A stretch of DNA of 62,816 nucleotides, the filler included, from Basidiobolus ranarum (Eukaryota): the NCBI GenBank assembly GCA_040143965.1. It is 19 parts of 19 records of this genome, joined end to end, with 100 filler letters (N's around TTAATTAATTAA, not from the genome) between each part and the next. Parts side by side here need not be neighbours in the genome. Positions count along the whole stretch, not along the records: positions 36,485 to 39,693 come from JASJQH010002649.1; 18 more parts are not named here. The stretch is one strand, 5' to 3'. The notes beneath the pieces were generated by a model. The model was not told the DNA's origin, searched no databases, and saw only the letters and a list, made by a program, of their open reading frames with translations. Each line of letters opens with the position of its first letter. Within the stretch, counting starts at the first letter, position 1. This document shows positions 18,821 to 49,609 of this stretch, piece after piece. The position numbers were made by a program, and so were the translations under genes.

Positions 18821-19507
18821 ATGTCCAGACCTCTCAACGACCAAGAAGTTCTCAACGAGATGAACAAGATGGTGGCTTTCATTAAGCAAGAGGCCCAAGA
18901 AAAGGCTCGTGAGATTAAGGTTAAAGCTGATGAAGAATTCAATATCGAAAAGGCCAAGCTTATTCGTCAAGAATCCATCAATATTGATACTGCCTTCGAT
19001 CGTAAAGTGAAGCAAGCTGATGTTCAACGTCGTATTGCTCAATCTAACGTCATCAACAAATCTCGTCTTCAATTATTGGCCACCCGCCAACAATTATTGA
19101 ACGACCTTTTCAGCGAAGCCACTGAGCATCTTAAGTCAGTTGCCAAGGATAAGGACAGTTATCAAGTTCTTCTTAAGGACTTGATTCTCCAAGGCCTTTA
19201 CCAACTGATGGACAAGAAGGTTCATCTTATCTGCCGTCAAGAAGACGTCTCCATTGTTGAGACCGCTCTCAAGAACGCCCAACAAGAGTATAAGAATGCT
19301 TTCAATACCGCTGTCGAAATTACTATTGACAGAGAAGAGTTCCTTCCTAAAGATTCCAACGGTGGTGTCATCCTATCATCCCTCGAAGGTCGCGTCAAGT
19401 GCCACAATACCCTTGAATCCCGCTTGGAATTACTTAAGGATCAAATGCTTCCTGATATCCGTTACATGTTGTTTGGACACTCTCCTTCTCGTAAATTCTT
19501 TAACTAG
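18821..19507 (+). CDS. VMA4: V-type proton ATPase subunit E
   Basis: EMNKMVAFIKQEAQEKAREIKVKADEEFNIEKAKL...GGVIL...NTLESRLELL..QMLPDIR..LFG.SPSRKFF. The CDS is intronless, with a probable 5'UTR intron at 18747-18815 (GTAACT..CTAAT..TTTAG). Confidence 0.97.
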   Translation: MSRPLNDQEVLNEMNKMVAFIKQEAQEKAREIKVKADEEFNIEKAKLIRQESINIDTAFDRKVKQADVQRRIAQSNVINKSRLQLLATRQQLLNDLFSEATEHLKSVAKDKDSYQVLLKDLILQGLYQLMDKKVHLICRQEDVSIVETALKNAQQEYKNAFNTAVEITIDREEFLPKDSNGGVILSSLEGRVKCHNTLESRLELLKDQMLPDIRYMLFGHSPSRKFFN

Positions 19508-26659: not shown

Positions 26660-28295
26660 TGGCTTGTTTAGCTCCACTAGATTAATCATGGTGCTTGCAG
26701 CTGTCCATTACCTTGATATACAACAAATGGATGTAAAAACAGCCTGTCTGAATGGAAATCTAGAAGAAGAGATCTATTTGGAGCAACCAGATGGATTTGT
26801 TGACCCAAAACATCCTGACATGGTCTGTAAACTACAAAAATTGCTATATGAACTCAAGTAAGCATCCAGGGCATGGTACAACAAGATAGAGATCTATTTG
26901 AAATCACTGCAGTTCTAAAAATGCACAGCAAATGACAGTATTTACATCAAAACAACTGGAAATAAGATTCTTATCTTGGCACTATATGTGGGTGACTTGA
27001 TTGTATGATCTGGAAGCCCTTAATCAGAAAAAAAGCAGCTTATCAAACCAATATCAGAAGTCTAATATTGGTGAATTGAGTTATTTACTTGGAATCCAAA
27101 TCAAGAGAGATAAACCCAATCTGAAAATCATGCTGAATCAGTCTAGATAAATCCTAAAATGTTTCAACATGGAGAATGGCCAATGGATCCCACTGTGAAA
27201 TTAATCAAAATCTTATCCAATTTGGCCTTGAATGACTCAAATCAAAGCCAGGAGTTCCCTTCTCAATCCATGGTCAGTAGTTTAACATATACAATGGTCA
27301 GAACATGTCCAGCCATTACTGTGGTAGTGGGAACTGTTAGCAAATATCTCAAAAACTCAAGATTTGAGCACAAAACTGCAGTAGAATGAATATTCAGGTA
27401 TTTGAGAGGAACTGTAGATCTAGTTCTAGAATACTCTGCCACTGCTGATGCACAAAATTTTGAAGGCTAAAGTGATGCAGACTGGGGAACAAACCTTGAT
27501 GATAGAAGTTCAACAACTGGGTACACTTTTCTCTATGGTTATGGAGCCATTACTTGGAATAGTAAGAAGCAACCAACTGTAACACTTTCCACTACAGAAG
27601 CAGAGTATATGGCTGCCTCTGCTACTACACAAGAAGCTCTACGGTTCAGGAGTTATTTACAGGCTTAGTATACACACAAAAATGTTCTATAACTGTATTT
27701 GAAGATAATCAAAGTTTTATTTCATAAGCTAAAAACCCAACATTTCATGCTACAACAAAACATACAAATATTAGGCATCATTTTGTTAGAGAAGATATAG
27801 AGAATGATATAATTGAACTGGTCTATTGCCCTACTGAAGAAATGATAGCTGATATCTTAACAAAATCTTTAGCTCAATGACAATATGAGTTATTAAGATA
27901 TAAGTTTGGTTTAAGAGAAATACAAAATAATTGGTTGAGTGGGAATGTTGAAATTAGGTAAATAGCAACTCATTATTTAGTAGTTAGTTTATTCATATTC
28001 TGATTTTAGCACTCAGTTCTGACATTCAAAAATGCATGATTATTGCTCTAATTGATAGTAATATCAATTAGATCACTTTTACTAATTTTCACTATTTTCT
28101 CAAAACTTCCCCAAATCACCTCAAATTTTTACCCATGCTGAACAGGCATGTTTATTATGATCTAAGCATGTCCAATAGTCCTATTTCATGGTAAACTATA
28201 AATAGGACATATTTAGTGCACTAAAACTTAAGTGTCTAATTCACAAATCCATAACTTATCCAAAATGCTTCCAAATCCCCTAAACACTTTGATCA
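26660..28295 (+). mobile_element. Ty1/copia RT (RVT_2) and RNase H pseudogene, PPT (~27936-27945) and 3' LTR A (27946-28295)
   Basis: [85 protein letters not shown] and ADILTKSL. GAGTGGGAA is followed by TGTTGAAATTAG...GATCA. A partial second LTR copy extends to ~28523. Confidence 0.93.
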
Positions 28296-29862
28296 TTTAA
28301 CCACTTTTACCAATTTTCACTATTTTCTCAAAACTTCTCCAAGCCATCTCAAGTTTTCACTCACACTTAACAGGCATATTTGTTACAATCTAAGCATGTC
28401 AATAAGTCCTTCCTTATAATAAACTATATATCAAACATATTCAATTCAATAAAACTTAAGTGTCTAATTTACAAATCCACATCTGTTCCAGAACACTTCC
28501 AAGTCCCCTAAATGCTTTTAACAGAGATGTTGAGTGTAAATGACCCACATGGAGGATGTTGACTTCATCAAAACTAACTCTATGGTATTTTCCATTGTTG
28601 AGTTTACTGAGCAACTTGGCACAATAGTTTAACAGGTTGAACTTCCATATTTAGCAGTAAGCACTGGGAAAAGTCCTGGTACACAAATGGTAGTGGGTAC
28701 CAAGTCTTAAATTCATGAGAAATGGCAGGCAAAAGGCAAGTTGAAAGTGAATATGAAATATATGCAACTACAAATATTGCAAATGGTATAGGTCTTGATT
28801 CACTCTCATCAAGTCCTGCTGGTGCTAAAGTAAGTGAGAGTGATAAGGCAATATCAATGACCATTGAAGGAGAGAGGTTTGCATTGAACACAAGTAGCTG
28901 ATCTTTTGCTGGGATTCCTCATATATTACTGCAGCTTATTCCTAGTTCCATATAACCACAGACATAATACAAGTGGAAAACTTCAGTGTGCAAACTCACA
29001 TATGCTCCAGCCATTGTTTCATTACCATCAAGTACCAACAGCTACTGTTGTTCAACTAAGTACAAGATTATTTTGCCAAAGCTATGTTAATTCAAGTTAT
29101 TTAAGTATTTAATTAGCTACTCACCATTGACAACAAGTCACTTGACTATATCAAGTGACTTTATTATACCATCTGGCACTGCCTGGATGTCTATTCTCTA
29201 ATCATTCCCATACAAAAAAATTGGTTTGTGTGGATTAGATCCACCCTTCTGAGGCACAAGACCATCAGAGAACTGTCCCAATATTGGTGGCTTGTACTCT
29301 GCCTGCTATCCTGATGGTGCAAAGGCAACTTTCTAGTGGCATTATGTTGGTCATCTTACATGGTGAAAGATTTATTCTCAGACTTGCATACATTGCATAA
29401 TTTCCAACAATTTTTGAATGAAAAATTACTTGGCTGACTGCTATAAGTATTTGAATTTATATGTATACCTTGATTAAGATATTTCAGGCTTCATATTCCA
29501 GCCATAATGAAAATCAAAAAATATAAGAATCTTGTTGCATTTAGTATCAACATATGTGCATACTTGACTAATCTGATGTAACTCAACAAAATCAATTTAT
29601 TTTACCAGCACACAATAGGTGGAAAAACTGCTAAACATCTGAAATTTAGAGTAGCATTGACACTTGGCAAATAGCTGAATCTTGTAACCATCAACAATGA
29701 GAATAAGCTCTTGGATTTTGGCAAATTTCCGTAAAGAATTCAGCCAATATATCCCCAACTTGNNNNNNNNNNNNNNNNNNNNNNNNNNNNNNNNNNNNNN
29801 NNNNNNTTAATTAATTAANNNNNNNNNNNNNNNNNNNNNNNNNNNNNNNNNNNNNNNNNNNN

Positions 29863-36484: not shown

Positions 36485-36610
36485 AACGATGACGGAAGTG
36501 TGTATACGAGTAACTGGAACTACATAATCAATGGAGAGGGAGGACCTTATATCACCACCTACGTCACCTTCAACACTGGTGAAGGAGTATCATTCATCTG
36601 GTATGAGTAG
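36485..36610 (+). CDS. CHAP amidase copy 1 (3' end only; contig edge)
   Basis: NDDGSVYTSNWNYIINGEGGPYITTYVTFNTGEGVSFIWYE*, identical in protein to the C-terminus of copy 2. Confidence 0.9.
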   Translation, partial: NDDGSVYTSNWNYIINGEGGPYITTYVTFNTGEGVSFIWYE

Positions 36611-37764
36611 ATACCACTTCTGGCCATAGATACCTGCAATAGATAAAGCGACTAGCTATCTTTTGTTTCTCATTCCCTTTTCATACTTTTGATATGGAAT
36701 AATCAGAACGTATTAAATGCAAAATAAATATACTATCAATGAAGCTTTTGTCACGTTGAATATATATTTTTAAAACCTTGATCTCCTATTTTTGTAAACA
36801 TCGGCAGAATCAAATAATATGTAGTCTAAGATCATTGCTAAAACGTTGATATCACTCTAACTGATTCATCTTTTTTTCTTTCTCACTCTATCCTTCTTAT
36901 TTGTTGCAATCATAAATTGACGTATTGTAGTTCAAAAAGTTCACATACTTGGAACTATATTATGGTTAAACGTCTACCTGTATTCTAGAGATTCTGAATA
37001 ATGCATTAAAAGATAGATTACAACCTCCTATGAAGCATAGGAGTATTACTTAGTATCTTGAGTGATGCAGTTTCCTACCAACTACAGCTTGTTTTAGAGG
37101 AAATAGACCATTCGATATCAATTACCAAGGTAATCTTACTCACCACTTTTGTCAGTGGATCTACATTTGATACACTGAATCGACTGTAGAACAACCGTCT
37201 AGCTTATTTCCCGTAACAAAACCCTTTTTACATAACCCGGGCATCTTATTAATAAATCGAATTCCTTAGTTGATACAAGTTCAGGAGTTACTGGTGACTT
37301 TTCAGGTTCATCCTATCGCATATTGAAAGGACTCTCGCATGCTGATTTCAAGTTACTATGGAATTCTCTCTAACCTAAAATACGGAGTAATATTTAATCT
37401 GAACCAATCTACACTGCTGGGAGTTAAATGATTTCCAGTCACAGAGGAGACTTTGAATTACTATATATGGAATATTTACTCTCATGTTCAGTAGACTATA
37501 TTTCTGACTACACTTTAAACAAATATCTTTAGAAGGATTTAGACAACAGGTCCCTACCATATTCAATCATTCATCCATATATGGTGAGAACGATCGGGAA
37601 CTGAAAATAACAAGATTGAAGGTTCGTTCCTGAGGATTCACTTGGATCAGGATCCGTAATTCATTGGATAAACACTTGCTGGACGGAAAAGCTGCTTAGA
37701 TATAAAGCCTAAACTCACGCCACTATTGAGCTCACAGTCAATTATACTGCAATACAAAATTAAA

Positions 37765-38304
37765 ATGGTCAAAATCTCATCTGGTCTATCTTACATTTGC
37801 CTTACTGTTGCTGCTTTTTTGGGCTTAGCGGTGCAAGCTCTTCCAGCTCCAAGCACTACCTCTGCTACCCAACAGCTCAACCACACCGAGATATTGTCTG
37901 AGAAGAGCATACTCGGCGATATCACCAACTTTGACGCTTGCTCTCTCCAATTTCGTTTTGACAATGGCCAGTGTACTGACTGGGCCGATGCTCGCTACTA
38001 CCAACTCACCTGCCAACACACTCAGTGGTGGGGTAACGCTCTCACATGGCCTAACAGCGCCGAGAATACTCAAGGCTGGGTGGTGTCTGATCAACCCCGA
38101 GTCCCTTCAATTATTGCCATCCAGCCAGGATATCAAGGATGTGACTCATATGGCCACGTTGCCGTAGTCGAAAGCATCAACGATGACGGAAGTGTGTATA
38201 CGAGTAACTGGAACTACATAATCAATGGAGAAGGAGGACCCTACATCACGACTTATGTCACCTTCAATACTGGTGAAGGAGTATCATTCATCTGGTATGA
38301 GTAG
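37765..38304 (+). CDS. Secreted CHAP-domain (Cys/His-dependent amidohydrolase/peptidase) protein, copy 2, complete, 179 aa, intronless
   Basis: True start is AAAATGG at 37765 (the ORF track begins upstream at a TTG). Signal peptide, then GQCTDWADARY..WGNALTW..GWVVSDQPRVPSIIAIQPGYQG..YGHVAVVESINDDGSVYTSNWN. TATAAA at ~37701 and AATAAA downstream. Confidence 0.92.
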   Translation: MVKISSGLSYICLTVAAFLGLAVQALPAPSTTSATQQLNHTEILSEKSILGDITNFDACSLQFRFDNGQCTDWADARYYQLTCQHTQWWGNALTWPNSAENTQGWVVSDQPRVPSIIAIQPGYQGCDSYGHVAVVESINDDGSVYTSNWNYIINGEGGPYITTYVTFNTGEGVSFIWYE

Positions 38305-39414
38305 ATACCACTTCTGACCATAAATACCCGCAAAAGATAACGTAACTACATAACTCTTGTTTCTTATTCCCCTTTCACACTTTTGATAAAGAATAATTAG
38401 AGAGTATTGGAAGTAAAATAAATATACCATTAATGAAGTATTGGCCACGTTAAATATTTATTTCTTGAACTGTAGTCTAATGTTTATGGAAAAATTAGCG
38501 AAATTATTTTTTCAAAATCTCTAAAAATGTATTGAAAAGTATGTAGTGTAGGACTTTTACCAAAATATTGATTTTACACTGTCTTTCTCGCTCTATCCCT
38601 CTTACTTGTTGCAACCACAGATTGATATGTGTTGTACCTCAAAAAGGTCGTCATACTTGGACCAATATTGTGATTAAAGCTCTATCTGCATTCTCGATAC
38701 TCCTAAAAAAGTACTAGATGTTCGATTATTATCTCTTATGTGTATGGGAGTGCTATGTCATTTCTGGATGGAGAGTTCACTATTGACATATGATTTTTTA
38801 GTTTATTTCCCATAACGAGACCCTTTTTACACAATCAATTTGTAACCAACTAATTTCTTATCAAAGAGGCATTCAAGTGTGGTCTAGTGTTGGAGCATAT
38901 TAGTATTCTTATTGAGCATCTTTTCAATAATGAAAATTTCTTAGCTTATACTCAGGAGTTACTAGTGATTGTTCAGATTTAACCTATCGAATATTGAAAA
39001 GATTCCGGCGTGCTGATTCCAAGATATTACGGAATTCTCTAACCAAAAATATGAAGTGAATTAAATCTGAACTGATCTAGACTGCTGGGAGTTAAATGGT
39101 CTCCAGTCACAATGGAGAGTAAGAACTACTATATATGGTATATTTGTTCCAATGTTCAGTAGACTATATTTGTGACTACTCTTTAAACAAATATCTCAAC
39201 AAGGATTCAGACAACAGGCCTTACCATATGTGGTAAGAGCGATCGGGAACTCAAGATAACTGGATTGAAAGTCTGTTCCAAAGGATTCACTTTGATCAGG
39301 ATCCGTAAGTTCATTGGATAAATACTTGCTAGACGGAAAACCTGTTTAGATATAAAGACTAAACTCACGTCCCTATTAACCTCACAGTCAATTACACTGC
39401 AATACAAAATCAAA

Positions 39415-39693
39415 ATGGTCAAAATCTCATCTGGTCTATCTTACATCTGCCTTACCGCTACTGCTTTCTTGGGTTTGGCAGTACAAGCTCTTCCAGCTCC
39501 AAGCGCTACTACCCAACAATTCAACCACACTCAGATATTAGCCGAGAAGAGCATACTCGGGGATATCACCAACTTTGACGCGTGCTCTCTCCAATTTCGT
39601 TTTGACAATGGCCAGTGTACTGACTGGGCCGATGCTCGCTACTATCAACTCACCTGCCAGCATACTCAGTGGTGGGGTAATGCTCTCACGTGG
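39415..39693 (+). CDS. CHAP amidase copy 3 (5' part; contig edge)
   Basis: Near-identical to copy 2 through WWGNALTW; the upstream promoter region is also duplicated. Confidence 0.9.
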
Positions 39694-43000: not shown

Positions 43001-43100
43001 NNNNNNNNNNNNNNNNNNNNNNNNNNNNNNNNNNNNNNNNNNNNTTAATTAATTAANNNNNNNNNNNNNNNNNNNNNNNNNNNNNNNNNNNNNNNNNNNN

Positions 43101-44215
43101 AAAGAGGTTTTGTTTGGGTTGACAGGCTTCAGTAAATTCCAGTTTTTGTCAGCTGGATCTGAATTCGCTGCTAGAATTAACCCAGTAGTTTCAGTCATTC
43201 CATACATCGATGCAAGATTGACATTTTGTTTGATTAAGTTAGTGGCAATATGTTCAGAGAACGCTGCACCACAAACCATTACTACTTGTAACTTCCTCAG
43301 TAAGGGATACACAGTAGGATCTTCCTCAGCAACGAAGTAGACTTGTTCTAGCATCCAGGGTACCAATAATAGTAAGGTTGGTTGATATCTTTTCAAAGTA
43401 TCAATGATATTGCGACCAGTAGGAATGAAGGTCCCCAAGTGTGAAGTTGGAATTACGTAAGTTCCACCGTGATACATCATTCTTAGAAAGTCGCATATGT
43501 TGCTAGCAGCATGGAATAATGGTAGGAATGCACATGAAATACTTTCCGAGTCAACAAAACCTCTTTGAGAAGCCTCACAGTACCTAAGACCGGTCAGGAT
43601 CTGCTTGCTACCCTGGGTGATGAGCTTTGGAAAGAGAGTGCTCCCAGAGGTATGAATATACATGATACGTCGATCCATATCATCAGGTCGTCCTTTTCCT
43701 AGTGATTCCATCTCGGGGGTTATCGGGAAGGCTTCATTGGTGTTAGGACTCAAGTTCGGGATGCTTGGAAACTCATCAGACTCATGTTCAGTCAGAAGAT
43801 ATACCTCAATCGCGGGTATAGCTTTGCGGATATCTTTCGCTATCTCAATGAATTGAGGATGTACTGCCAAGACACTTGCCTTTCCTTCTTTCAGGAGGTG
43901 AACCATCCCATCAGAGGAATTTTTTGTGCTCAAGTTTAGGGATACAGCCCGTGCTCGTATCAAGGAATATACAAGCGTACAGTACTCAATACAGTTTGGT
44001 GCCAGGATTCCCACTACAGTATTTTCTTCGATCGAGATTTGATTCTTAGGCCACAAATAGTAGCTGTTATAGATGGTCAAATCCCGGAACAGCTTGTATG
44101 AGATTTGCTGTTCTTCACCTTGAGCATCGGTGTAAATAAGAGCGACTTTGGTGCCACTCTGCTTGCTATGAAGATCCAGAAGAGTATTGAAGTCGTTAGA
44201 TTGGAAACTGGGCAT
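43101..44215 (-). CDS. NRPS-like adenylation domain (fungal carboxylic acid reductase A-T-R type), 5' part
   Basis: ATG at 44215. Motifs YIHTSGSTLFPK (A3), FLPLFHA, LVPWMLEQ, CGAA and YGMTETTG (A5). Intronless to the contig edge. Confidence 0.88.
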
Positions 44216-45737
44216 TGTTTGCTGAATAGTAAACTGGTGTTTGCTCAAGACAAACCAGTGGCTATTTTATATACAAATTAATGACATTCGGAACATAACA
44301 TGCTCCACAGTATGAAGTAGATGGGGATGCATACATCATACAGTAACGTTCAACAATCGACTACATGCAAACATGATATCAAGGAAATACTTCAATCCCG
44401 AGTAACCGATTGACTCAATCCAACGAAACTGTACAAGTGGTAACTCAAACTCTTGCACTAGCTGCATGCGTTCGTACCTGTCGTCACTAATTCCACCTAC
44501 TTATTCTCTTGGGATTTCAAATCAATCTATCATTCTGTAAACAATATATTCCCAAGAAATGCTGTTGGAGGATGAAACTGTTTCTAATAGATAAGAGCCG
44601 TCAAATGTGATCAGCAAAGAGTTAATAATATCGGCTAAAATTAGAAGCCGTTGAATTCATCCGATATGTATCTGGAGTACAACTGGTTACCCTGATCAAT
44701 TACGAAATAGCATACCACAATCAATCAAGTCCATTAGCACATTTCATTGCATGGCAAAACTCGCACGTGACTAGCCAATGTTTATCTGATAACTTAAACC
44801 CGTGTAATTATTGGTTGAAGTATTCAGGGGATTCGGATAAACACATTTAACCATAATTTGAAATCAGCATCATTTGGGCATGATATCACGATCACATTCA
44901 CCCCTTTTGTTGACGTGAAATATGCAGACATCATTTGGGCTTTGCTTGTGTAAAAGTCATGGAGATAGGTTAAACTTTTTGAGGGCCCAACATTATTCCT
45001 TTCGCACTGAATATATACAGTAGAGAATAAACTATTATAGGTGACGGAATGGATGCTCTTATCGGTTATTTCCCAACAGAGCAACTAAACTATCATGTTA
45101 CTCAGAGTTGCTCCATCCCTTGGTTGGCTGACGCAGTGAACCTACTATGTTCAATCTTGATTACATGTATTACTTAGAAGCAGCTCTTGCGATACACATC
45201 GGGTGATCTTGACCATATTCGTATACTGATTACATATTTTTCTCCCAAATTCAGGTCGCCAATAATATTGACATTGTAATGTGTAACAGAGTACCATAAA
45301 CCATAGCTTGGTTGTTCCTAGCTACTGAAGTATAGAATATAGCTGATAAAATTATTAAGCACAGCACAGCCAAGAAGGGTTAGAAATTATAGTCATATTT
45401 TACTCACGTATTAGACGATATCTAATACAACATGGGATTAAGATATATCGGTAGTTTAACCTTCAGTATTTATTTGATTTTGAAGATGTAAGGTAGCGTT
45501 GGAGTTGATGCACAGGTAAGGAGATAAGAAATATGAGGAGGTTTGCATGCCATATATATATGTATGCATATTCAGTACCTACTGATTCTTCCTGGCCTAC
45601 CTTAATAAATAATTTAATAAGGGCCCAACATAAATCCCAAAATATTGAGTGAGTAAAAGCTGACTATAATTTACTGAGCACTGCCATCGTCATGTATTAT
45701 TATCCAGCATGGAATATCGCGACCATCATTACGAATA

Positions 45738-46405: not shown

Positions 46406-47550
46406 CATCACTTATCAGTAGTGTCTAGCACTTTATAAACTCTCCTTTAAGTGTTTCCCATACCGGACGTTTGTTATCACCATACCCTTTGTCTTTTGTT
46501 AGCAGGTTTTAGCTCTTAGTAGACTTCGCTATTAGTGTTTCCTGTACCCGACATTTGCTATCACCATACCTTTCATCATTTGTCAATAGTATTAAGCGCT
46601 TTGTAGACTTTTCTTAAAATGTTGCAAATACCCGTCGTTTATTATCACCATATCCTTTATCATTTGTCAGCAGTCCATAAGACTCGTAAACTCTTTTTCA
46701 AGTGTTTCCCATACCTTAGCAGTACCACTTCGTAGACTCTTCTTTTTTAAGAGTTTCCTATACCCTGCGTTGTTGTCACCATACTCTCGGTCATTTTTTA
46801 GGAGTCACCATACCCTTCATCATTTGTCAGTGGCCGTTAGCACTGTATAAACTTTTGTTCAAGTGTTTCTAGTCTTTATCAACATACCTGCCGTTTCTTG
46901 GCACCGTTCCCATAGGCATTTATCGGTGGTCTATAGCAGTTCGTAGACTCTACTTTAAGTGTTATCCAAACTTGTTATTTCTTGGCTCCATACCCTTCAT
47001 CGCTTGGTAGTAGCCTTCAGCACTGCCTAGACTCTCTTTTAAGTGTTTTCTGTACGAGTTGTTTTATTATTACCATACCCTTCGTCGTTTTCAGTAGTCT
47101 TTAGCACTTCCTTACCACTTTATTAGCTTTCCTTTAAGTGTTTACCATGCCCGTCATTTTTGGCACCATACTCTTCATCGTTTGTCAGTGATTTTAGCTC
47201 TCCGTATACTACCCTTGAAGTACTTCCCATACCTGTTGTTTCTTGGCACCATAACCTTTGTCATTTTTCAGTAGTCCATAGCATCTCCAAGGTTCTCTTT
47301 TAAGTGTTTCCCATCCCCGTCATTTGTGGCACCACACTCTTCTTTGTTTGTCAGTGGTCTTTAGCTCTCCGTATACTCTCCTTTAACTATTTCCCATACC
47401 GCTCTTTCCTTGGCATCATATCCTTTCCTTAACTTTCATCGTTTCTAAGCATTCTTTACCACTTCATAACCTCTTTGATCGTTAGCTCCCCGTATACTAC
47501 CCTATAAGTGTTTTCCATACCCGTCGTTTGTGGTCAAGTTACCCTTTGTC
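46406..47550. repeat. Diverged ~84-bp tandem satellite, array 1
   Basis: Approximate consensus AAGTGTTTCCCATACCCGTCGTTTCTTGGCACCATACCCTTCGTCATTTGTCAGTAGTCTTTAGCACTTCGTAGACTCTCCTTT, with units starting near 46449, 46534, 46617 and 46700. Confidence 0.9.
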
Positions 47551-48159
47551 TTTGTTTCAATTTTAACCCTATTATTAGTCTAAATTTCTAACCATATAGA
47601 ATATTCTAGTAACTTCTACCCTTCACTAGCACCAGTGGTCTTGTTGCTTTAAATCCAGAAGTTTGTATGTATTTAGCACAATATATGATTTAACAGGCAA
47701 TTCTTTGATCCGTTATAAACATGAATATTAAAATATTCGATTGAAAAGGAAACTATCCAAAAAGTGGCTTACGACAAAGCTAAGACTAGGTCACCTGAGC
47801 ATGATGAACTGAATAATTCAAGATGTTAACAAAGTATCATGCCGGGTTTTAATGTTTTGCATAACATCGAGACAGAGTTGGCCGATAATATTCCTGTTAC
47901 AACACACAAATGATTAAGCTAAGCCACAACCGCCTCGTGGCGTGAGTATTAATAGCACAGCAGTTGGAGATATCGCATGGAATTGAAATTGAAGTTTGTT
48001 TCACTCTTTCTTTGTTTGGATGAGACATTCATTAAGAGTTCAACTATTGATGTTAGTATAACTTAAAATAGCTATGATAATCAATTAAGATGAAGCGCAA
48101 ATAACTTTGTATTGAACAAAAATGAACCAGAATCAATAGGGCAAAAGAGGAATTATTAT

Positions 48160-49609
48160 GTTCATTAGTCAGTAGCCTTTGGCACTTTGCAGATTATCTC
48201 TTTAATGTTTCCCATAACCGTCGTTTCATGGCACCATACCATTTGTCGTTTGTCAGTAGTCTTTAGCACTTCGTAAACTCAACCTTAAACATTTTCCATA
48301 CCCATCGTTTCCTGGCGCCGTACCCTTTCTCTCTTGTCAGTAGTCTTTAACGCTTTGTAGACTATCCCGTGAGTGTTTCCCTTCACCATATTCTTCGTCA
48401 TTTATCCGTATACCTAAGCACTTAATAAACTCTACTTCAATTGTTTCCTATACCAGCTGTTTCTTGACACCGTACCCTTTGCCACTTGTCAATTGTTAAG
48501 TCAATAGTCTTTGGCACAAATCTACTTTAATTGTTTCCTAACCGCTGTTTCTTGACACCGTACCCTTTATCACTTGTCAGTTGTATTTAGCCCTTGATAA
48601 AATGTGCTTTAAGTGTTTTCCATCCCGGTCATTTCTTGGCACCATACCCTCCATTGCTTGTCAGTAATATTTAGAACTGCCTTGTTTCCTCTACCCATTG
48701 TTTCTTGACACCATACCTTTTGACATTTTTCAGTAGTCTTACGCACCTTCTAGACTTTACTTGAAGTGTGTACCATACCCGACGTTTCTTCCCACCGTAT
48801 AGTTTGTCTCTTTTCTGCACTTTATCGGCTCTCTTTTAAGTGTTTTCCATACCCGTCATTTCTTTGCTCCATACCCTTCGATATTTGCCAGTAGTCTGTG
48901 GCATTTCAAGTGTTTTCATATATATCATTTCTTGTTACAGTACCCTTTGTCATTTTTCAATAGTCTTTCGCACCCCGTACCTGAAGTGTTTACCATACCC
49001 GACGTTTCTTCCCACCGTATCGTTTGTCTCTTTTATGCACTTTATCTGCTCTCCTTTAAACGTCTTCCATACCCGTCGTTTCTTGGCACCATACCCTTCA
49101 ATATTTGCCAGTAGTCTGTTGCACTTCAAGTGTTTCCCATACCGCTTGTTTGTTATCACCATACCCTTCGCTTGTTTCAGTAGTCTTTAGCACTGCGTAA
49201 ACTCTGCATTAAGTGTTTCCCTCACCGCTTGTTTCTTGGCTCATACCCTTTGTCATTTTTCAGTAATCTCTAGCCCTTCGTGGACTCTCCTTGAAGTTTT
49301 CCACACTCATTGTTTCTTGGTACCATACCCTTCGTCATTTTTTGGTAGTCTTTAGCACTTTGTTGACTCTTTCTAACTTGTCTTATACCTGAAATTTCTT
49401 GGCACTATACGCTTCGTTTTTTTCTAGTAGTCTTGTGAACTGCTTGGACTCTCCTTTAAGTTATTTCCATACCCGCTGTTTATTATTACCGTACTCTTTG
49501 TCATTTGTCAGCAGTCTTTAGCATTTTGTAGACTCTCCGTGAGGTGATTTCAATACCACTCTTTTCCTGACACTTAGTAATACCGCTCTTTTCTTGGCAC
49601 CACGCCCTT
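48160..49609. repeat. Diverged ~84-bp tandem satellite, array 2 (same orientation)
   Basis: Same consensus; includes a higher-identity duplicated block at ~48760-48860 vs ~48980-49080. Confidence 0.9.

What the first reader, a model, noticed from the sequence alone, without database searches (positions are those of the whole stretch)
36485..39693. Tandem array of secreted bacterial-type CHAP peptidoglycan amidases in a fungal genome: candidate domesticated antibacterial effector family
Seen: at least 3 head-to-tail copies (period ~1.65-1.69 kb, array running off both contig ends) of an intronless gene encoding a signal peptide, a short S/T linker and a complete CHAP domain with the catalytic Cys (GQCT), His (GHV) and SNWN. 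Each full unit has a TATA box, an AAAATGG start context and a 3' AATAAA, and no Shine-Dalgarno site or operon layout. Established: CHAP domains are typical of bacterial and phage cell-wall amidases/endopeptidases, and fungi have no peptidoglycan. Inference: the motif style (WADARYYQLT..WWGNA..W, PSIIAIQPG.QG, F..G.GVSF) recalls from memory Ktedonobacteria/Chloroflexi CHAP proteins. That points to horizontal transfer, amplification and use as a secreted bacteriolytic weapon or feeding enzyme, analogous to the Dae amidases of ticks.
Basis: partly seen in the sequence, partly recalled or inferred. Interest (0 to 1): 0.9.

Follow-up and report, generated by a model that had tools for sequence, protein, structure and literature searches.

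The report
Tandem secreted CHAP genes in Basidiobolus
A small contig from a Basidiobolus-like fungus carries head-to-tail copies of a secreted, bacterial-type cell-wall-cutting enzyme gene whose nearest non-fungal relatives are in Ktedonobacteria, a likely old gene transfer that then multiplied in these fungi.

Summary
Contig 36485-39693 holds one whole 179-aa gene and two copies cut by the contig ends, with a period of 1650-1694 bp. The protein has a signal-peptide-like N-terminus, a short S/T linker and a complete CHAP domain (PF05257, E 2e-16; confident model; the best solved matches by fold are staphylococcal and phage wall hydrolases).

Adjacent copies differ at many synonymous sites and few non-synonymous ones (dS 0.35-0.40, dN/dS about 0.07). 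The duplicates are therefore old and under purifying selection.

The host is a Basidiobolus. Its CHAP paralogues are up to 73% identical to those of B. meristosporus, and a V-ATPase gene on another contig is 91% identical.

At least 19 paralogues each are on record for B. meristosporus and B. ranarum, often sharing a contig. Entomophthora muscae and Massospora cicadina also carry the family.

All fungal sequences form one clade (99/94). Their nearest relatives are membrane-anchored CHAP proteins of Ktedonobacteria (50-59% identity). The best tree nests the fungi inside bacterial diversity, but the AU test does not establish this (p 0.23).

My reading is one old bacterium-to-fungus transfer, a change from membrane anchor to signal peptide, then expansion. 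Antibacterial or feeding use is inferred, not tested. This is a new member of a known kind (Dae amidases, Saprolegnia CHAPs).

The parts
36485..36610 (+). Copy 1, 3' fragment: last 41 codons plus TAG stop of a CHAP gene, cut by the contig start
   Evidence: The translation is identical to the last 41 residues of copy 2, with 7 synonymous and 0 non-synonymous differences. tblastn finds it.
36723..36728 (+). AATAAA, candidate poly(A) signal of copy 1, starting 113 nt after the stop
   Evidence: It lies at the same offset as in copy 2.
36611..37764 (+). Spacer 1 (3' flank of copy 1, divergent middle, conserved promoter-proximal roughly 400 bp of copy 2)
   Evidence: Windowed identity between units. 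Repeat families D4-D8. No Rfam match. The only other ATG ORF of 50 aa or more is a 61-aa antisense frame.
37701..37706 (+). TATAAA, candidate TATA box of copy 2, 64 bp upstream of the ATG (start to start)
   Evidence: one of only two TATAAA in the contig. The other is at the same offset before copy 3.
37765..38304 (+). Copy 2: complete intronless gene, 179 aa plus stop (P0001)
   Evidence: It aligns over 100% of its length to 179-181-aa Basidiobolus proteins.
37765..37839 (+). Predicted signal peptide (residues 1-25, hydrophobic core 8-22, VQA before LPAPS)
   Evidence: Hydropathy scan. This is a heuristic; no dedicated signal-peptide predictor was available.
37945..38301 (+). CHAP domain (residues 61-179)
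   Evidence: Pfam PF05257 over residues 66-148. pLDDT is 93-98 from residue 61 to the end. Foldseek hits to CHAP wall hydrolases.
37972..37974 (+). Codon of catalytic Cys70 (GQCT)
   Evidence: Invariant in 76 of 76 aligned fungal and bacterial relatives.
38155..38157 (+). Codon of catalytic His131 (GHV)
   Evidence: His in 75 of 76 aligned relatives.
38206..38214 (+). Codons N148-W149-N150 (SNWN): the polar third and fourth active-site positions
   Evidence: N150 is invariant in 76 of 76. Position 148 is N in 60 and D in 13 of 76. The motif aligns to SEMN of the solved CHAP 2K3A.
38417..38422 (+). AATAAA, candidate poly(A) signal of copy 2, starting 113 nt after the stop
38305..39414 (+). Spacer 2
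39351..39356 (+). TATAAA, candidate TATA box of copy 3, 64 bp upstream of the ATG (start to start)
39415..39693 (+). Copy 3, 5' fragment: first 93 codons, cut by the contig end
   Evidence: Against copy 2: 19 synonymous and 6 non-synonymous differences, a 2-codon indel in the linker, dS 0.40, dN 0.028.

Best explanation
The contig is a piece of a tandem array in the nuclear genome of a Basidiobolus-like fungus. Each unit is an intronless, independently promoted gene for a small secreted enzyme: a signal peptide, a short disordered S/T linker, and one CHAP (Cys-His amidohydrolase/peptidase) domain.

The family descends from a membrane-anchored, extracytoplasmic CHAP wall hydrolase of the kind found throughout Ktedonobacteria (Chloroflexota). 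It most likely entered an ancestor shared by Basidiobolus and the Entomophthorales once. It exchanged the bacterial N-terminal cytoplasmic tail and transmembrane anchor for a eukaryotic signal peptide. In Basidiobolus it then expanded to at least 19 paralogues per genome, many in clusters, kept under purifying selection.

Inferred mechanism: the secreted enzyme uses Cys70 and His131, with N148 and N150 as polar helpers, to cut an amide bond of bacterial peptidoglycan. The bond could be MurNAc-L-Ala or a stem or cross-bridge peptide bond; which one is unknown. This would lyse or weaken neighbouring bacteria in gut, dung or soil, for competition, feeding or both.

Shown here: array anatomy, domain, fold, conserved active site, purifying selection, fungal host, fungal monophyly, Ktedonobacterial affinity. 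Inferred: direction and single origin of the transfer, secretion, substrate, biological role.
For: Anatomy
- Three copies with a period of 1650-1694 bp, with conserved promoter-proximal and 3' flanks.

Selection
- Copy 2 against copy 3: dS 0.40, dN 0.028, ratio 0.07 over 93 codons.
- Copy 1 against copy 2: 7 synonymous and 0 non-synonymous changes over 41 codons.

Domain and fold
- PF05257, E 2.2e-16.
- PDB sequence hits: 2K3A at E 1.9e-10 and 5T1Q at E 2.9e-8.
- AlphaFold pLDDT of 93-98 over residues 61-179.
- Of the 14 Foldseek matches at E <= 0.001, those listed are CHAP domains of staphylococcal/streptococcal wall hydrolases and phage lysins; one (2LRJ) is deposited under the name 'staphyloxanthin biosynthesis protein'.
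- Active site: C70 in 76/76, H131 in 75/76, N150 in 76/76, N or D at 148 in 73/76.

Host
- 30 of the 40 hits are named Basidiobolus, up to 73% identical, on contigs of up to 204 kb.
- 8 of 10 further top representatives are Basidiobolus.
- Other contigs of the window encode V-ATPase E, RGS, Ric8 and a kexin P-domain. The V-ATPase E is 91% identical to B. meristosporus, with the next best hit at 64%.
- The contig's GC of 0.379 lies within the window's range of 0.347-0.41.

Family
- 19 distinct 90%-identity clusters each are named for B. meristosporus and B. ranarum.
- Several share one contig length and have near-consecutive locus tags. One example is a 3253-bp B. ranarum contig with two adjacent genes.
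- E. muscae has 6 paralogues (7 counting P0177), including consecutive tags DSO57_1023045-47. Massospora has 1.

Phylogeny
- Fungi (15 Basidiobolus, 8 Entomophthorales, unnamed P0180) form one side of a branch with support 99/91, in 100% of 200 bootstrap trees.
- With outgroups the fungal clade has 99/94. Basidiobolus (94/74) and Entomophthorales plus P0180 (97/78) are sister groups. Fungi plus the main Ktedonobacterial group have 93/81, with other Ktedonobacter and Tengunoibacter paralogues outside.
- In a 297-row FastTree the fungal clade holds the 36 Basidiobolus rows and the 5 Entomophthorales/P0180 rows, with no bacterial row inside it.

Affinity
- An exhaustive HMMER search of 1.84 billion representatives gives Basidiobolus first. 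Next come proteins that are 62-100% identical to named Ktedonobacteria loci.
- 76 of 76 genome loci are from Ktedonobacteria or unclassified Chloroflexota MAGs. That ranking was made against the Tengunoibacter row, so it is biased.
- Phage matches are only 31-39% identical.

Architecture switch
- The hydrophobic segment lies at residue 1-3 in 11 of 14 fungal proteins examined.
- In 18 of the 19 Ktedonobacteria-type proteins it lies 47-144 residues in, roughly 90-135 residues before the catalytic Cys. In the 19th, a short protein, it starts at residue 6.
Against: - The contig carries no other gene, so physical linkage to fungal chromosomal DNA is not shown in this window.
- Nesting within bacterial diversity is not significant. 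A tree with all 40 ingroup bacterial rows held together is only 10.4 log-likelihood units worse (AU p 0.231). The alignment has only 123 columns.
- Basidiobolus domains are more similar to Ktedonobacterial ones (50-59%) than to Entomophthorales ones (30-42% over whole-protein alignment). Fungal monophyly therefore rests on the tree. Only one strict shared-derived residue was found: His85, in 33/35 Basidiobolus and 8/8 Entomophthorales, and not among the commonest residues of the 32 bacterial rows.
- The third catalytic position is Asn or Asp, not the Glu seen at the aligned position of 2K3A.
- No expression, secretion or activity data could be obtained.
- The gene's GC3 of 0.50 is slightly above that of 5 other ORFs of the window (0.31-0.46). 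The sample is small.
Confidence: 0.7

Rival explanations
1. The contig comes from a bacterial contaminant or symbiont co-assembled with the fungus.
For: The CHAP domain is a typically bacterial and phage domain. The contig is short and holds no host gene.
Against: - Coding density is one 540-bp gene per 1.65 kb, with spacers of 34% GC.
- TATA, AAAATGG and AATAAA sit at fixed offsets, and there is no Shine-Dalgarno sequence.
- The N-terminus looks like a eukaryotic signal peptide, not the bacterial anchor architecture.
- The closest relatives (73%) are annotated genes of two separately sequenced Basidiobolus species, on contigs of up to 204 kb.
- The best bacterial identity is only 50-59%.
Confidence: 0.02
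2. No bacterium-to-fungus transfer took place. Either the family is ancestrally eukaryotic and was lost elsewhere, or it moved from fungi to Ktedonobacteria.
For: The fungal sequences form their own clade. A topology with all ingroup bacteria as one clade is not rejected (AU p 0.231).
Against: - In the searches run, named eukaryotic members are confined to Basidiobolus, Entomophthora and Massospora. Only 30 of the 150 listed representatives were looked up by name, 20 of them among the top-scoring or most deviant.
- The bacterial side has several architectures and many paralogues per genome: 14 PF05257 matches in Ktedonobacter racemifer and 6 in Tengunoibacter.
- Ktedonobacterial members span Ktedonobacterales and Thermogemmatispora.
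- The rooted best tree places other Ktedonobacterial paralogues outside the fungi-plus-main-group clade.
- From established knowledge, CHAP wall hydrolases act on peptidoglycan, which fungi lack.
Confidence: 0.05
3. Basidiobolus and the Entomophthorales each acquired the gene from related Ktedonobacteria-like donors in two or more independent transfers.
For: Basidiobolus domains resemble Ktedonobacterial ones more than Entomophthorales ones. The Entomophthorales branches are long, so their placement could be an artefact.
Against: - Fungal monophyly has support of 99/91 and 99/94, and appears in 100% of 200 bootstrap trees.
- The same clade appears in the 297-row FastTree.
- His85 is shared by the fungi.
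- All fungal groups share the architecture of signal peptide, low-complexity linker and CHAP.
Confidence: 0.12
4. The enzyme is secreted but has been re-tooled for a substrate other than peptidoglycan. Candidates are a fungal wall or glycoprotein peptide, a gamma-glutamyl amide, or a host (insect or vertebrate gut) molecule.
For: The CHAP fold also serves non-wall amidases: E. coli Gsp amidase and trypanothione synthetase-amidase appear among the weak fold matches. The third catalytic residue is Asn or Asp here, not Glu. Entomophthorales are insect pathogens, not gut commensals (my own knowledge).
Against: - All strong sequence and fold matches are peptidoglycan hydrolases.
- The active-site and surrounding motifs are almost unchanged from the Ktedonobacterial wall enzymes. 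These include PSIIxxQPG, GHVAVVE and TSNWN, with 50-59% identity over the domain.
- A weak lead: some Basidiobolus paralogues carry an N-terminal Cys-rich module whose predicted fold resembles modules of Myxococcota M23 and Amidase_2 lytic enzymes.
Confidence: 0.12

Closest known systems
Membrane-anchored CHAP-domain proteins of Ktedonobacteria (e.g. Tengunoibacter tsumagoiensis 'CHAP domain-containing protein', P0040; Dictyobacter, Thermogemmatispora, Ktedonobacter, Thermosporothrix)
   Same: They are the nearest non-fungal relatives by exhaustive search and by tree, at 50-59% identity over the CHAP domain. They share the motifs GQCT.WA, PSII..QPG.QG, GHVAVVE.IN.DGSVYTSNWN and GVSF.W. They also occur as tandem paralogues: several loci hold 2-3 domains.
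   Different: The bacterial proteins are 250-360 aa. They have a cytoplasmic N-terminal tail, one internal transmembrane segment and a QQATATA-type linker. The fungal ones have an N-terminal signal peptide and an S/T- or N-rich linker. Their genes have eukaryotic signals.
Dae (domesticated amidase effector) genes of ticks and other eukaryotes, derived from bacterial type VI Tae amidases
   Same: The concept is the same: a bacterial peptidoglycan amidase of the papain-like Cys-His superfamily, transferred to a eukaryote, given a secretion signal and kept under selection.
   Different: This is not the same family. Tae1/Tse1 and Tae3 appear only as weak fold matches (E 0.07-0.1, probability 0.33-0.57). 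The donor lineage here is Ktedonobacteria housekeeping-type CHAPs, not T6SS effectors. Here the family is greatly expanded and tandemly arrayed. No antibacterial activity has been shown.
Secreted CHAP family of the oomycete Saprolegnia parasitica (Jiang et al. 2013, PMC3681718; passages read)
   Same: It is a secreted CHAP-domain family (7 genes) in an osmotrophic eukaryote. The paper attributes it to acquisition from bacteria followed by repeated duplication.
   Different: The host is in a different eukaryotic supergroup. No Saprolegnia protein was among the 30 representatives that I looked up by name or in the fungal clade, so it is presumably an independent acquisition. I did not test relatedness directly.
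CHAP domains of staphylococcal autolysins and phage lysins (5T1Q, 2K3A, phi812 hub 9EUM/9EUF, LysGH15 4OLK, LysK CHAPK 4CSH, PcsB 4CGK)
   Same: Same Pfam family and fold. The catalytic Cys and His are aligned.
   Different: Identity is only 17-32%. Those enzymes carry SH3b, amidase or coiled-coil partner modules. The acidic third residue of 2K3A is Asn or Asp here.
HGT-derived gene set of Basidiobolus (Tabima et al. 2020, PMC7466969; passages read)
   Same: The paper reports 806, 426 and 212 bacterial-origin candidate genes in three Basidiobolus genomes. These are mostly intronless, embedded among fungal genes, and have host-like composition. The CHAP genes fit that description.
   Different: The main text focuses on secondary metabolism. 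It has no occurrence of 'CHAP', 'peptidoglycan', 'amidase', 'Chloroflexi' or 'Ktedonobacter'. Tables S4 and S5 may list these genes, but supplements were closed.

Membership tests
CHAP domain (Pfam PF05257; MEROPS peptidase family C51) | Profile match above the curated gathering score | tested here: met
   60.6 bits against a cut-off of 26, E 2.2e-16, profile positions 7-79 of 81.
CHAP domain (Pfam PF05257; MEROPS peptidase family C51) | Conserved catalytic Cys at the N-terminus of helix 1 and His at the start of a core beta-strand | tested here: met
   C70 begins helix 70-82 and H131 begins strand 131-138. C70 is invariant in 76/76 and H131 is present in 75/76 relatives. Both align to the Cys and His of 2K3A and 5T1Q.
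CHAP domain (Pfam PF05257; MEROPS peptidase family C51) | Papain-like alpha+beta fold | tested here: met
   pLDDT is 93-98 over residues 61-179. There are 14 Foldseek hits at E <= 0.001 and probability 1.00; those listed are solved CHAP-fold domains. I could not inspect side-chain geometry of the active site.
CHAP domain (Pfam PF05257; MEROPS peptidase family C51) | Polar third residue (Glu/Asp/Asn) about 17 residues after the His, followed by a conserved Asn | tested here: met
   N148 (N in 60 and D in 13 of 76) and invariant N150 align to the E and N of SEMN in 2K3A. Which of these acts in catalysis is inferred.
CHAP domain (Pfam PF05257; MEROPS peptidase family C51) | Amidase or endopeptidase activity on peptidoglycan | not testable with these tools
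   This needs recombinant enzyme and muropeptide analysis.
Domesticated antibacterial wall hydrolases of eukaryotes (Dae-like, by function rather than homology) | Bacterial origin shown by phylogeny | tested here: inconclusive
   The nearest relatives are Ktedonobacteria, and the best rooted tree nests the fungi (93/81). The alternative with all ingroup bacteria as one clade is not rejected (AU p 0.231).
Domesticated antibacterial wall hydrolases of eukaryotes (Dae-like, by function rather than homology) | Integrated in the eukaryote's genome with eukaryotic gene structure and a secretion signal | tested here: met
   Eukaryotic signals at fixed offsets. An N-terminal hydrophobic signal-like segment. 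Homologues on Basidiobolus contigs of up to 204 kb and E. muscae contigs of up to 847 kb. Linkage of this particular contig to host genes is not shown.
Domesticated antibacterial wall hydrolases of eukaryotes (Dae-like, by function rather than homology) | Homology to type VI Tae amidases | tested here: not met
   Tae1/Tse1 and Tae3 appear only at Foldseek E 0.07-0.1. There are no sequence hits. The resemblance to Dae is therefore in how it may work; it is not a member of that family.
Domesticated antibacterial wall hydrolases of eukaryotes (Dae-like, by function rather than homology) | Expressed, secreted and bacteriolytic | not testable with these tools
No activity data exist.

The most novel reading that the evidence does not exclude
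A single, very old transfer of a Ktedonobacteria wall-remodelling CHAP enzyme into the common ancestor of Basidiobolus and the Entomophthorales was converted into a secreted enzyme. In Basidiobolus it became a large, tandemly arrayed and architecturally diversified antibacterial arsenal with three forms: short, long low-complexity linker, and Cys-rich targeting module. Through this arsenal the gut-dwelling fungus kills or digests bacteria and shapes its host's microbiome. It would be a fungal counterpart of the animal Dae system and one of the largest eukaryotic families of bacterial-origin peptidoglycan hydrolases.
Probability: 0.35. Interest if true: 0.65.

Novelty: new member of a known kind. 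Interest (0 to 1): 0.5.

Why it matters
Basidiobolus lives among dense bacterial communities in amphibian and reptile guts. It is already known for unusually many bacterial-origin genes (PMC7466969). A multi-copy family of secreted peptidoglycan hydrolases under purifying selection would give a concrete, testable molecular route by which this fungus competes with or feeds on bacteria.

The presence of the family in insect-pathogenic Entomophthorales suggests that the acquisition is old and has been kept through very different lifestyles. It also adds a fungal case, with an unusual donor lineage (Ktedonobacteria), to the short list of eukaryotes that domesticated bacterial wall-degrading enzymes. 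The small single-domain enzymes could interest those looking for new lysins.

I found no paper that describes this family:
- Basidiobolus + 'CHAP domain': 0 papers.
- Basidiobolus + horizontal gene transfer + peptidoglycan: 3 papers, 2 listed. I checked one by term search and saw the other only in the listing; neither showed anything on this family.
- Entomophthora + CHAP: 1 irrelevant paper.
- C51 + Zoopagomycota: 3 irrelevant papers.
- Ktedonobacteria + fungi + HGT: nothing relevant among the 15 listed of 23.

The proteins themselves are already in public databases as uncharacterised 'Peptidase C51 domain-containing' entries. They may also appear in supplementary HGT tables that I could not open.

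Tried and rejected
- I started the ORF one base late. This was corrected.
- no whole genome is held for this window, so copy number and linkage could not be checked in the assembly.
- The search for related loci with the single fungal protein found no bacterial relative. The patterns were too specific. Repeating with an alignment worked, but its ranking is relative to the Tengunoibacter row and so is biased towards Ktedonobacteria. For that reason I rely on the exhaustive search together.
- earlier findings of this scan returned nothing.
- crashed at the second comparison because the stop coordinate was wrong. This was fixed.
- timed out and was redone. One search stopped on a grouping error. 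Searches were continuations of the same careful tree searches.
- the AU test did not reject bacterial monophyly, so I do not claim nesting as shown. The same call printed tblastn rows for many proteins because the file held more than one record. Only the P0001 rows are used.
There is no evidence on expression, poly(A) sites or read depth.
- no Rfam family in the contig.
- no Pfam family besides CHAP in 10 longer Basidiobolus paralogues at E <= 0.01.
- 10 more deviant representatives are all unnamed metagenome proteins. I could not name any non-Chloroflexota bacterial phylum among the close relatives, nor exclude one.
- a scan for shared-derived residues of the two fungal groups found only one strict case (His85).
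- Rows dropped before the trees: domains covering fewer than 90 (proteins and loci) or 75-80 (outgroups and late additions) residues of the query. Redundancy above 78% identity was removed. Three of every four remaining unnamed representatives were left out, apart from eight kept by name, to get 104 rows. The rooted set of 70 rows was hand-picked to span the clades.
- Considered and rejected: a bacterial contaminant, and a phage origin of the fungal genes. Phage matches are only 31-39% identical.

Full report
WHAT IS THERE

The 62.8-kb window is not one stretch of genome. It is 19 contigs of about 3.2 kb, in descending length order, joined by N44-TTAATTAATTAA-N44 spacers. The finding's coordinates, 36485-39693, are exactly one such contig of 3209 bp. 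'Running off both contig ends' is therefore literal.

The contig holds three copies of one gene:
- the last 41 codons and stop of a first copy (36485-36610);
- a complete 179-codon ORF (37765-38304, protein P0001);
- the first 93 codons of a third copy (39415-39693).

The units are 1694 and about 1650 bp apart. Identity between units is 90-96% in coding sequence. It is 80-90% over the roughly 400 bp before the ATG and the roughly 200 bp after the stop. It falls to 39-70%, with many indels, in mid-spacer.

The eukaryote-style signals are real and sit at fixed offsets:
- TATAAA occurs only twice in the contig (37701, 39351), each 64 bp upstream of an ATG (start to start).
- Both ATGs sit in AAAATGG.
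- AATAAA starts 113 nt after both stops (36723, 38417).
- There is no Shine-Dalgarno-like purine run within 20 nt of either ATG.

Nothing else is in the spacers. There is no Rfam family. The only other ATG ORF of 50 aa or more outside the gene is a 61-aa antisense frame. No other contig of the window has a CHAP match.

THE PROTEIN

- Residues 1-25 form a hydrophobic, signal-peptide-like segment ending in VQA. This comes from hydropathy scans. No dedicated predictor was available, so secretion is inferred.
- Residues 26-60 are a disordered S/T/Q-rich linker with pLDDT below 65 and one N-glycosylation sequon.
- Residues 61-179 are a compact domain modelled at pLDDT 93-98.
- Pfam gives CHAP (PF05257) at E 2.2e-16, 60.6 bits against a cut-off of 26.
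- By sequence, the best solved relatives are the S. saprophyticus CHAP protein 2K3A (E 1.9e-10) and the S. aureus amidase 5T1Q.
- By fold, there are 14 matches at E <= 0.001. Those listed are CHAP-fold domains, mostly of staphylococcal or streptococcal wall hydrolases and phage lysins (5T1Q, phi812 hub, phage Andhra tail tip, LysGH15, PcsB, LysK CHAPK). One, 2LRJ, is deposited as 'staphyloxanthin biosynthesis protein'.
- The active site is conserved across 76 aligned fungal and bacterial relatives. Cys70 is in 76/76, His131 in 75/76 and Asn150 in 76/76. Position 148 is Asn in 60 and Asp in 13.
- In the HMMER alignment to 2K3A, SN148WN150 lies on SEMN. The acidic third residue of that CHAP is therefore an Asn or Asp here and in the Ktedonobacterial relatives. 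I recall the staphylococcal Cys-His-Glu-Asn arrangement from the literature and did not check it.

SELECTION

Copy 2 against copy 3 has 19 synonymous and 6 non-synonymous differences over 93 codons, giving dS 0.40, dN 0.028 and a ratio of 0.07. Four of the six replacements and the 2-codon indel lie in the signal peptide or linker. Copy 1 against copy 2 has 7 synonymous and 0 non-synonymous differences over 41 codons. The neighbouring copies are thus old duplicates, each kept functional. They are not assembly artefacts or recent amplifications.

WHOSE GENE IS IT

- Of the 40 database hits at E <= 0.001, 30 are named Basidiobolus meristosporus CBS 931.73 (17) or B. ranarum (13). They are up to 73% identical over 100% of the query. 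Most lie on contigs of tens to 204 kb.
- Of the next 10 representatives looked up, 8 more are Basidiobolus.
- Five of eight long ORFs from other contigs of the window match Pfam families. Four of these are typically eukaryotic: V-ATPase E, RGS, Ric8/synembryn and the kexin P-domain. The fifth is AMP-binding.
- The V-ATPase E ORF is 91% identical to B. meristosporus. The next best hit is 64%.
- The contig's GC (0.379) is within the range of the other 18 contigs, 0.347-0.41.

The assembly is therefore a Basidiobolus, or a very close relative, that differs from the two named species. The CHAP contig belongs to it with high probability. It carries no second gene to prove linkage.

THE FAMILY

- Counting distinct 90%-identity clusters by name gives 19 for B. 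meristosporus and 19 for B. ranarum. These are lower bounds.
  - four on a 176,536-bp contig;
  - three on a 122,520-bp contig (tags 302510, 302513, 302515);
  - pairs K7432_005503/04 and K7432_016307/08. The last pair is on a 3253-bp contig with both genes partial, the same situation as here.
- Architectures vary:
  - short forms like the window's (161-183 aa);
  - forms with long N/S/G-rich linkers (200-320 aa);
  - forms with a 55-residue Cys-rich N-terminal module (P0015, P0018, P0019).
  No second Pfam family is found in any of these.
- The window's protein is nearest to B. meristosporus P0002, at 88% over the domain. Subfamilies therefore predate the split of these species.

AN UNEXPECTED EXTENSION

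Among the representatives least like Ktedonobacteria, 4 of 10 looked up are from Entomophthorales: Massospora cicadina (1) and Entomophthora muscae (3). A search from an E. muscae protein found six E. muscae paralogues (seven with P0177). They include consecutive tags DSO57_1023045/46/47 on one 260-kb contig. After these come Basidiobolus, then Dictyobacter and Thermosporothrix. These proteins also have a signal-like N-terminus, a Pro- or N-rich linker and a C-terminal CHAP.

NEAREST NON-FUNGAL RELATIVES

- The exhaustive HMMER search of 1.84 billion representatives gave 945 hits at E <= 0.001 and listed the best 150.
- After the Basidiobolus tier (146-208 bits, plus one at 122) come proteins of 72-122 bits with 38-69% identity.
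- I compared 148 non-Basidiobolus proteins with named genome loci. These were the listed representatives plus the unnamed hits and cluster members.
- Their best identity to a named locus was at least 80% for 28, 70-80% for 32, 60-70% for 49, 50-60% for 32 and under 50% for 7. Five of the last 7 are the Entomophthorales/P0180 set.
- The named loci came from a pattern scan of 185,579 species genomes. All 76 loci kept are from one of two groups:
  - Ktedonobacteria: Tengunoibacter, Dictyobacter, Ktedonobacter, Ktedonospora, Ktedonosporobacter, Thermosporothrix, Thermogemmatispora;
  - MAGs titled Chloroflexota or 'Chloroflexia'.
- That scan ranks by likeness to the Tengunoibacter row and so is biased. 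The unbiased evidence is read through.
- Phage records give only 31-39% identity.
- The bacterial proteins differ in build. In 18 of the 19 examined, one hydrophobic 19-mer lies 47-144 residues from the N-terminus, roughly 90-135 residues before the catalytic Cys. The 19th, a short protein, has it at residue 6. This indicates a membrane-anchored extracytoplasmic enzyme.
- A second bacterial or metagenomic class has CHAP at or near the N-terminus and C-terminal transmembrane segments.
- Ktedonobacter racemifer has 14 PF05257 matches and Tengunoibacter has 6.

TREES

- A FastTree of all 297 domain rows puts the 36 Basidiobolus rows on one side of a branch (95). The smallest clade joining them to the Entomophthorales rows holds 41 rows: those 36, the four Entomophthorales proteins and unnamed P0180. 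No bacterial row is inside it.
- A careful IQ-TREE (LG+C20+F+G4 PMSF; 104 rows x 123 columns) puts the 24 fungal rows on one side of a branch with 99/91 support, in 100% of 200 bootstrap trees.
- The outgroups were four phage-record CHAPs and two divergent Ktedonobacterial paralogues. With them (70 rows), the careful tree gives:
  - fungal clade 99/94;
  - within it, Basidiobolus (94/74) sister to Entomophthorales plus P0180 (97/78);
  - fungi plus metagenomic P0049 at 89/75;
  - that group plus the main anchor-type Ktedonobacterial group at 93/81;
  - five other Ktedonobacter/Tengunoibacter paralogues and the N-terminal-CHAP class branching outside.
- This is the nested pattern expected for bacterium-to-fungus transfer. 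The AU test does not reject the alternative with all 40 ingroup bacterial rows as one clade (difference in lnL 10.4, p 0.231).
- With 123 columns, nesting is favoured but not shown.
- The sister relation of the two fungal groups fits one acquisition before their split. Caveats are long Entomophthorales branches and only one strict shared-derived residue: His85, in 33/35 and 8/8 fungal rows, with W or Y in most bacterial rows.

MECHANISM

Shown: a conserved, foldable CHAP active site; purifying selection; fungal gene structure; the anchor-to-signal-peptide switch.

Inferred: the protein is secreted and cleaves a peptidoglycan amide bond of neighbouring bacteria. Fungi have no peptidoglycan (established knowledge), so a self-wall role is unlikely.

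The ecological use may be killing competitors, digesting bacteria for nutrients, or controlling the microbiota of the gut or of an infected insect. This is open. The bond specificity, amidase versus endopeptidase, cannot be read from the sequence.

COMPARISON WITH WHAT IS KNOWN

- The domain is a member of PF05257/C51. All testable defining features are met.
- In concept it works like the Dae amidases of ticks (recalled, not read). It is not homologous to the Tae family beyond the shared superfamily fold.
- The closest published parallel I could read is the 7-gene secreted CHAP family of Saprolegnia parasitica. That paper attributes it to acquisition from bacteria and repeated duplication (PMC3681718, passages).
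- Basidiobolus is already known for 2-5% bacterial-origin, mostly intronless genes (PMC7466969, passages). That paper's main text does not mention CHAP, peptidoglycan, amidase or Chloroflexi.
- The 44-genome survey of HGT in early-diverging fungi has no occurrence of CHAP, peptidoglycan, amidase, lysozyme or Ktedonobacter in its main text (PMC11291939, term search).
- The protein-family expansion survey PMC8778642 has no relevant CHAP or C51 passage.
- Five literature searches found no description of this family.

VERDICT

Three refinements apply: the transfer is old and shared with Entomophthorales, nesting is not statistically secured, and function is untested. This is a new member of a known kind. 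Interest is moderate at 0.5. It is a clean, expandable case with an unusual donor lineage and a large family, but conceptually it has precedents.

Noticed in passing
window 1-62816: The window is a concatenation of 19 contigs of 3201-3222 bp, in descending length order, joined by N44-TTAATTAATTAA-N44 spacers. Neighbouring 'regions' of the window are therefore not physically linked.
   Followed up: yes
window 46449-49551: Several arrays of an 82-84-bp tandem repeat (also periods 69 and 220; 66-84% matches) cover most of one contig and the start of the next. They coincide with strong negative GC and AT skew. This is an unexplained satellite-like sequence.
   Followed up: no
window 28074-28512: A 228-bp unit repeated 1.9 times at 81% identity.
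   Followed up: no
window 18821-19507: An uninterrupted 228-aa V-ATPase subunit E ORF, 91% identical to B. meristosporus with the next best hit at 64%. It is useful as a host marker and appears intronless here.
   Followed up: yes
window 43049-44248 (- strand): A 399-aa open frame with an AMP-binding (adenylation) domain, E 1e-36. Basidiobolus is known for bacterial-origin NRPS-like genes (PMC7466969). I did not examine its origin.
   Followed up: no
Basidiobolus paralogues P0015, P0018, P0019 (residues about 20-80): A 55-residue Cys-rich N-terminal module precedes the linker and CHAP domain, with no Pfam match. The Atlas's predicted structure resembles modules in Myxococcota secreted M23 peptidase and Amidase_2 proteins and small Ascomycota proteins (TM 0.53-0.77 over about 56 residues). 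This is a weak lead to a wall-targeting module.
   Followed up: partly
loci L001, L014, L018, L020, L045, L047, L057, L069, L071, L082, L088: Many Ktedonobacteria loci of under 4 kb hold two or three CHAP domains: 113 domain hits in 96 loci. Two adjacent genes in Tengunoibacter lie about 1 kb apart. The family is therefore tandemly duplicated in the presumed donor lineage too.
   Followed up: partly
proteins P0058, P0063, P0085, P0098, P0117, P0131, P0133, P0134, P0153: This is a third architecture among close relatives. CHAP lies at or near the N-terminus, once after an SLT-like segment, with one or two C-terminal transmembrane segments. All are from unnamed metagenome contigs of 12-23 kb where a length is on record. 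They may be phage or conjugative-element proteins of Chloroflexota. I did not examine them further.
   Followed up: no
protein P0180 (unnamed metagenome contig of 9049 bp): It has a signal-peptide-like N-terminus, a long N/Q/G-rich linker and a CHAP domain. It groups with the Entomophthorales proteins on a very long branch. It probably comes from an unsampled fungus.
   Followed up: partly
Entomophthora muscae proteins P0175 and P0177: These two paralogues differ mainly by the number of copies of a Pro-rich repeat (PNPNPYPNNPFLPKKP...) in the linker: 474 against 322 aa.
   Followed up: no
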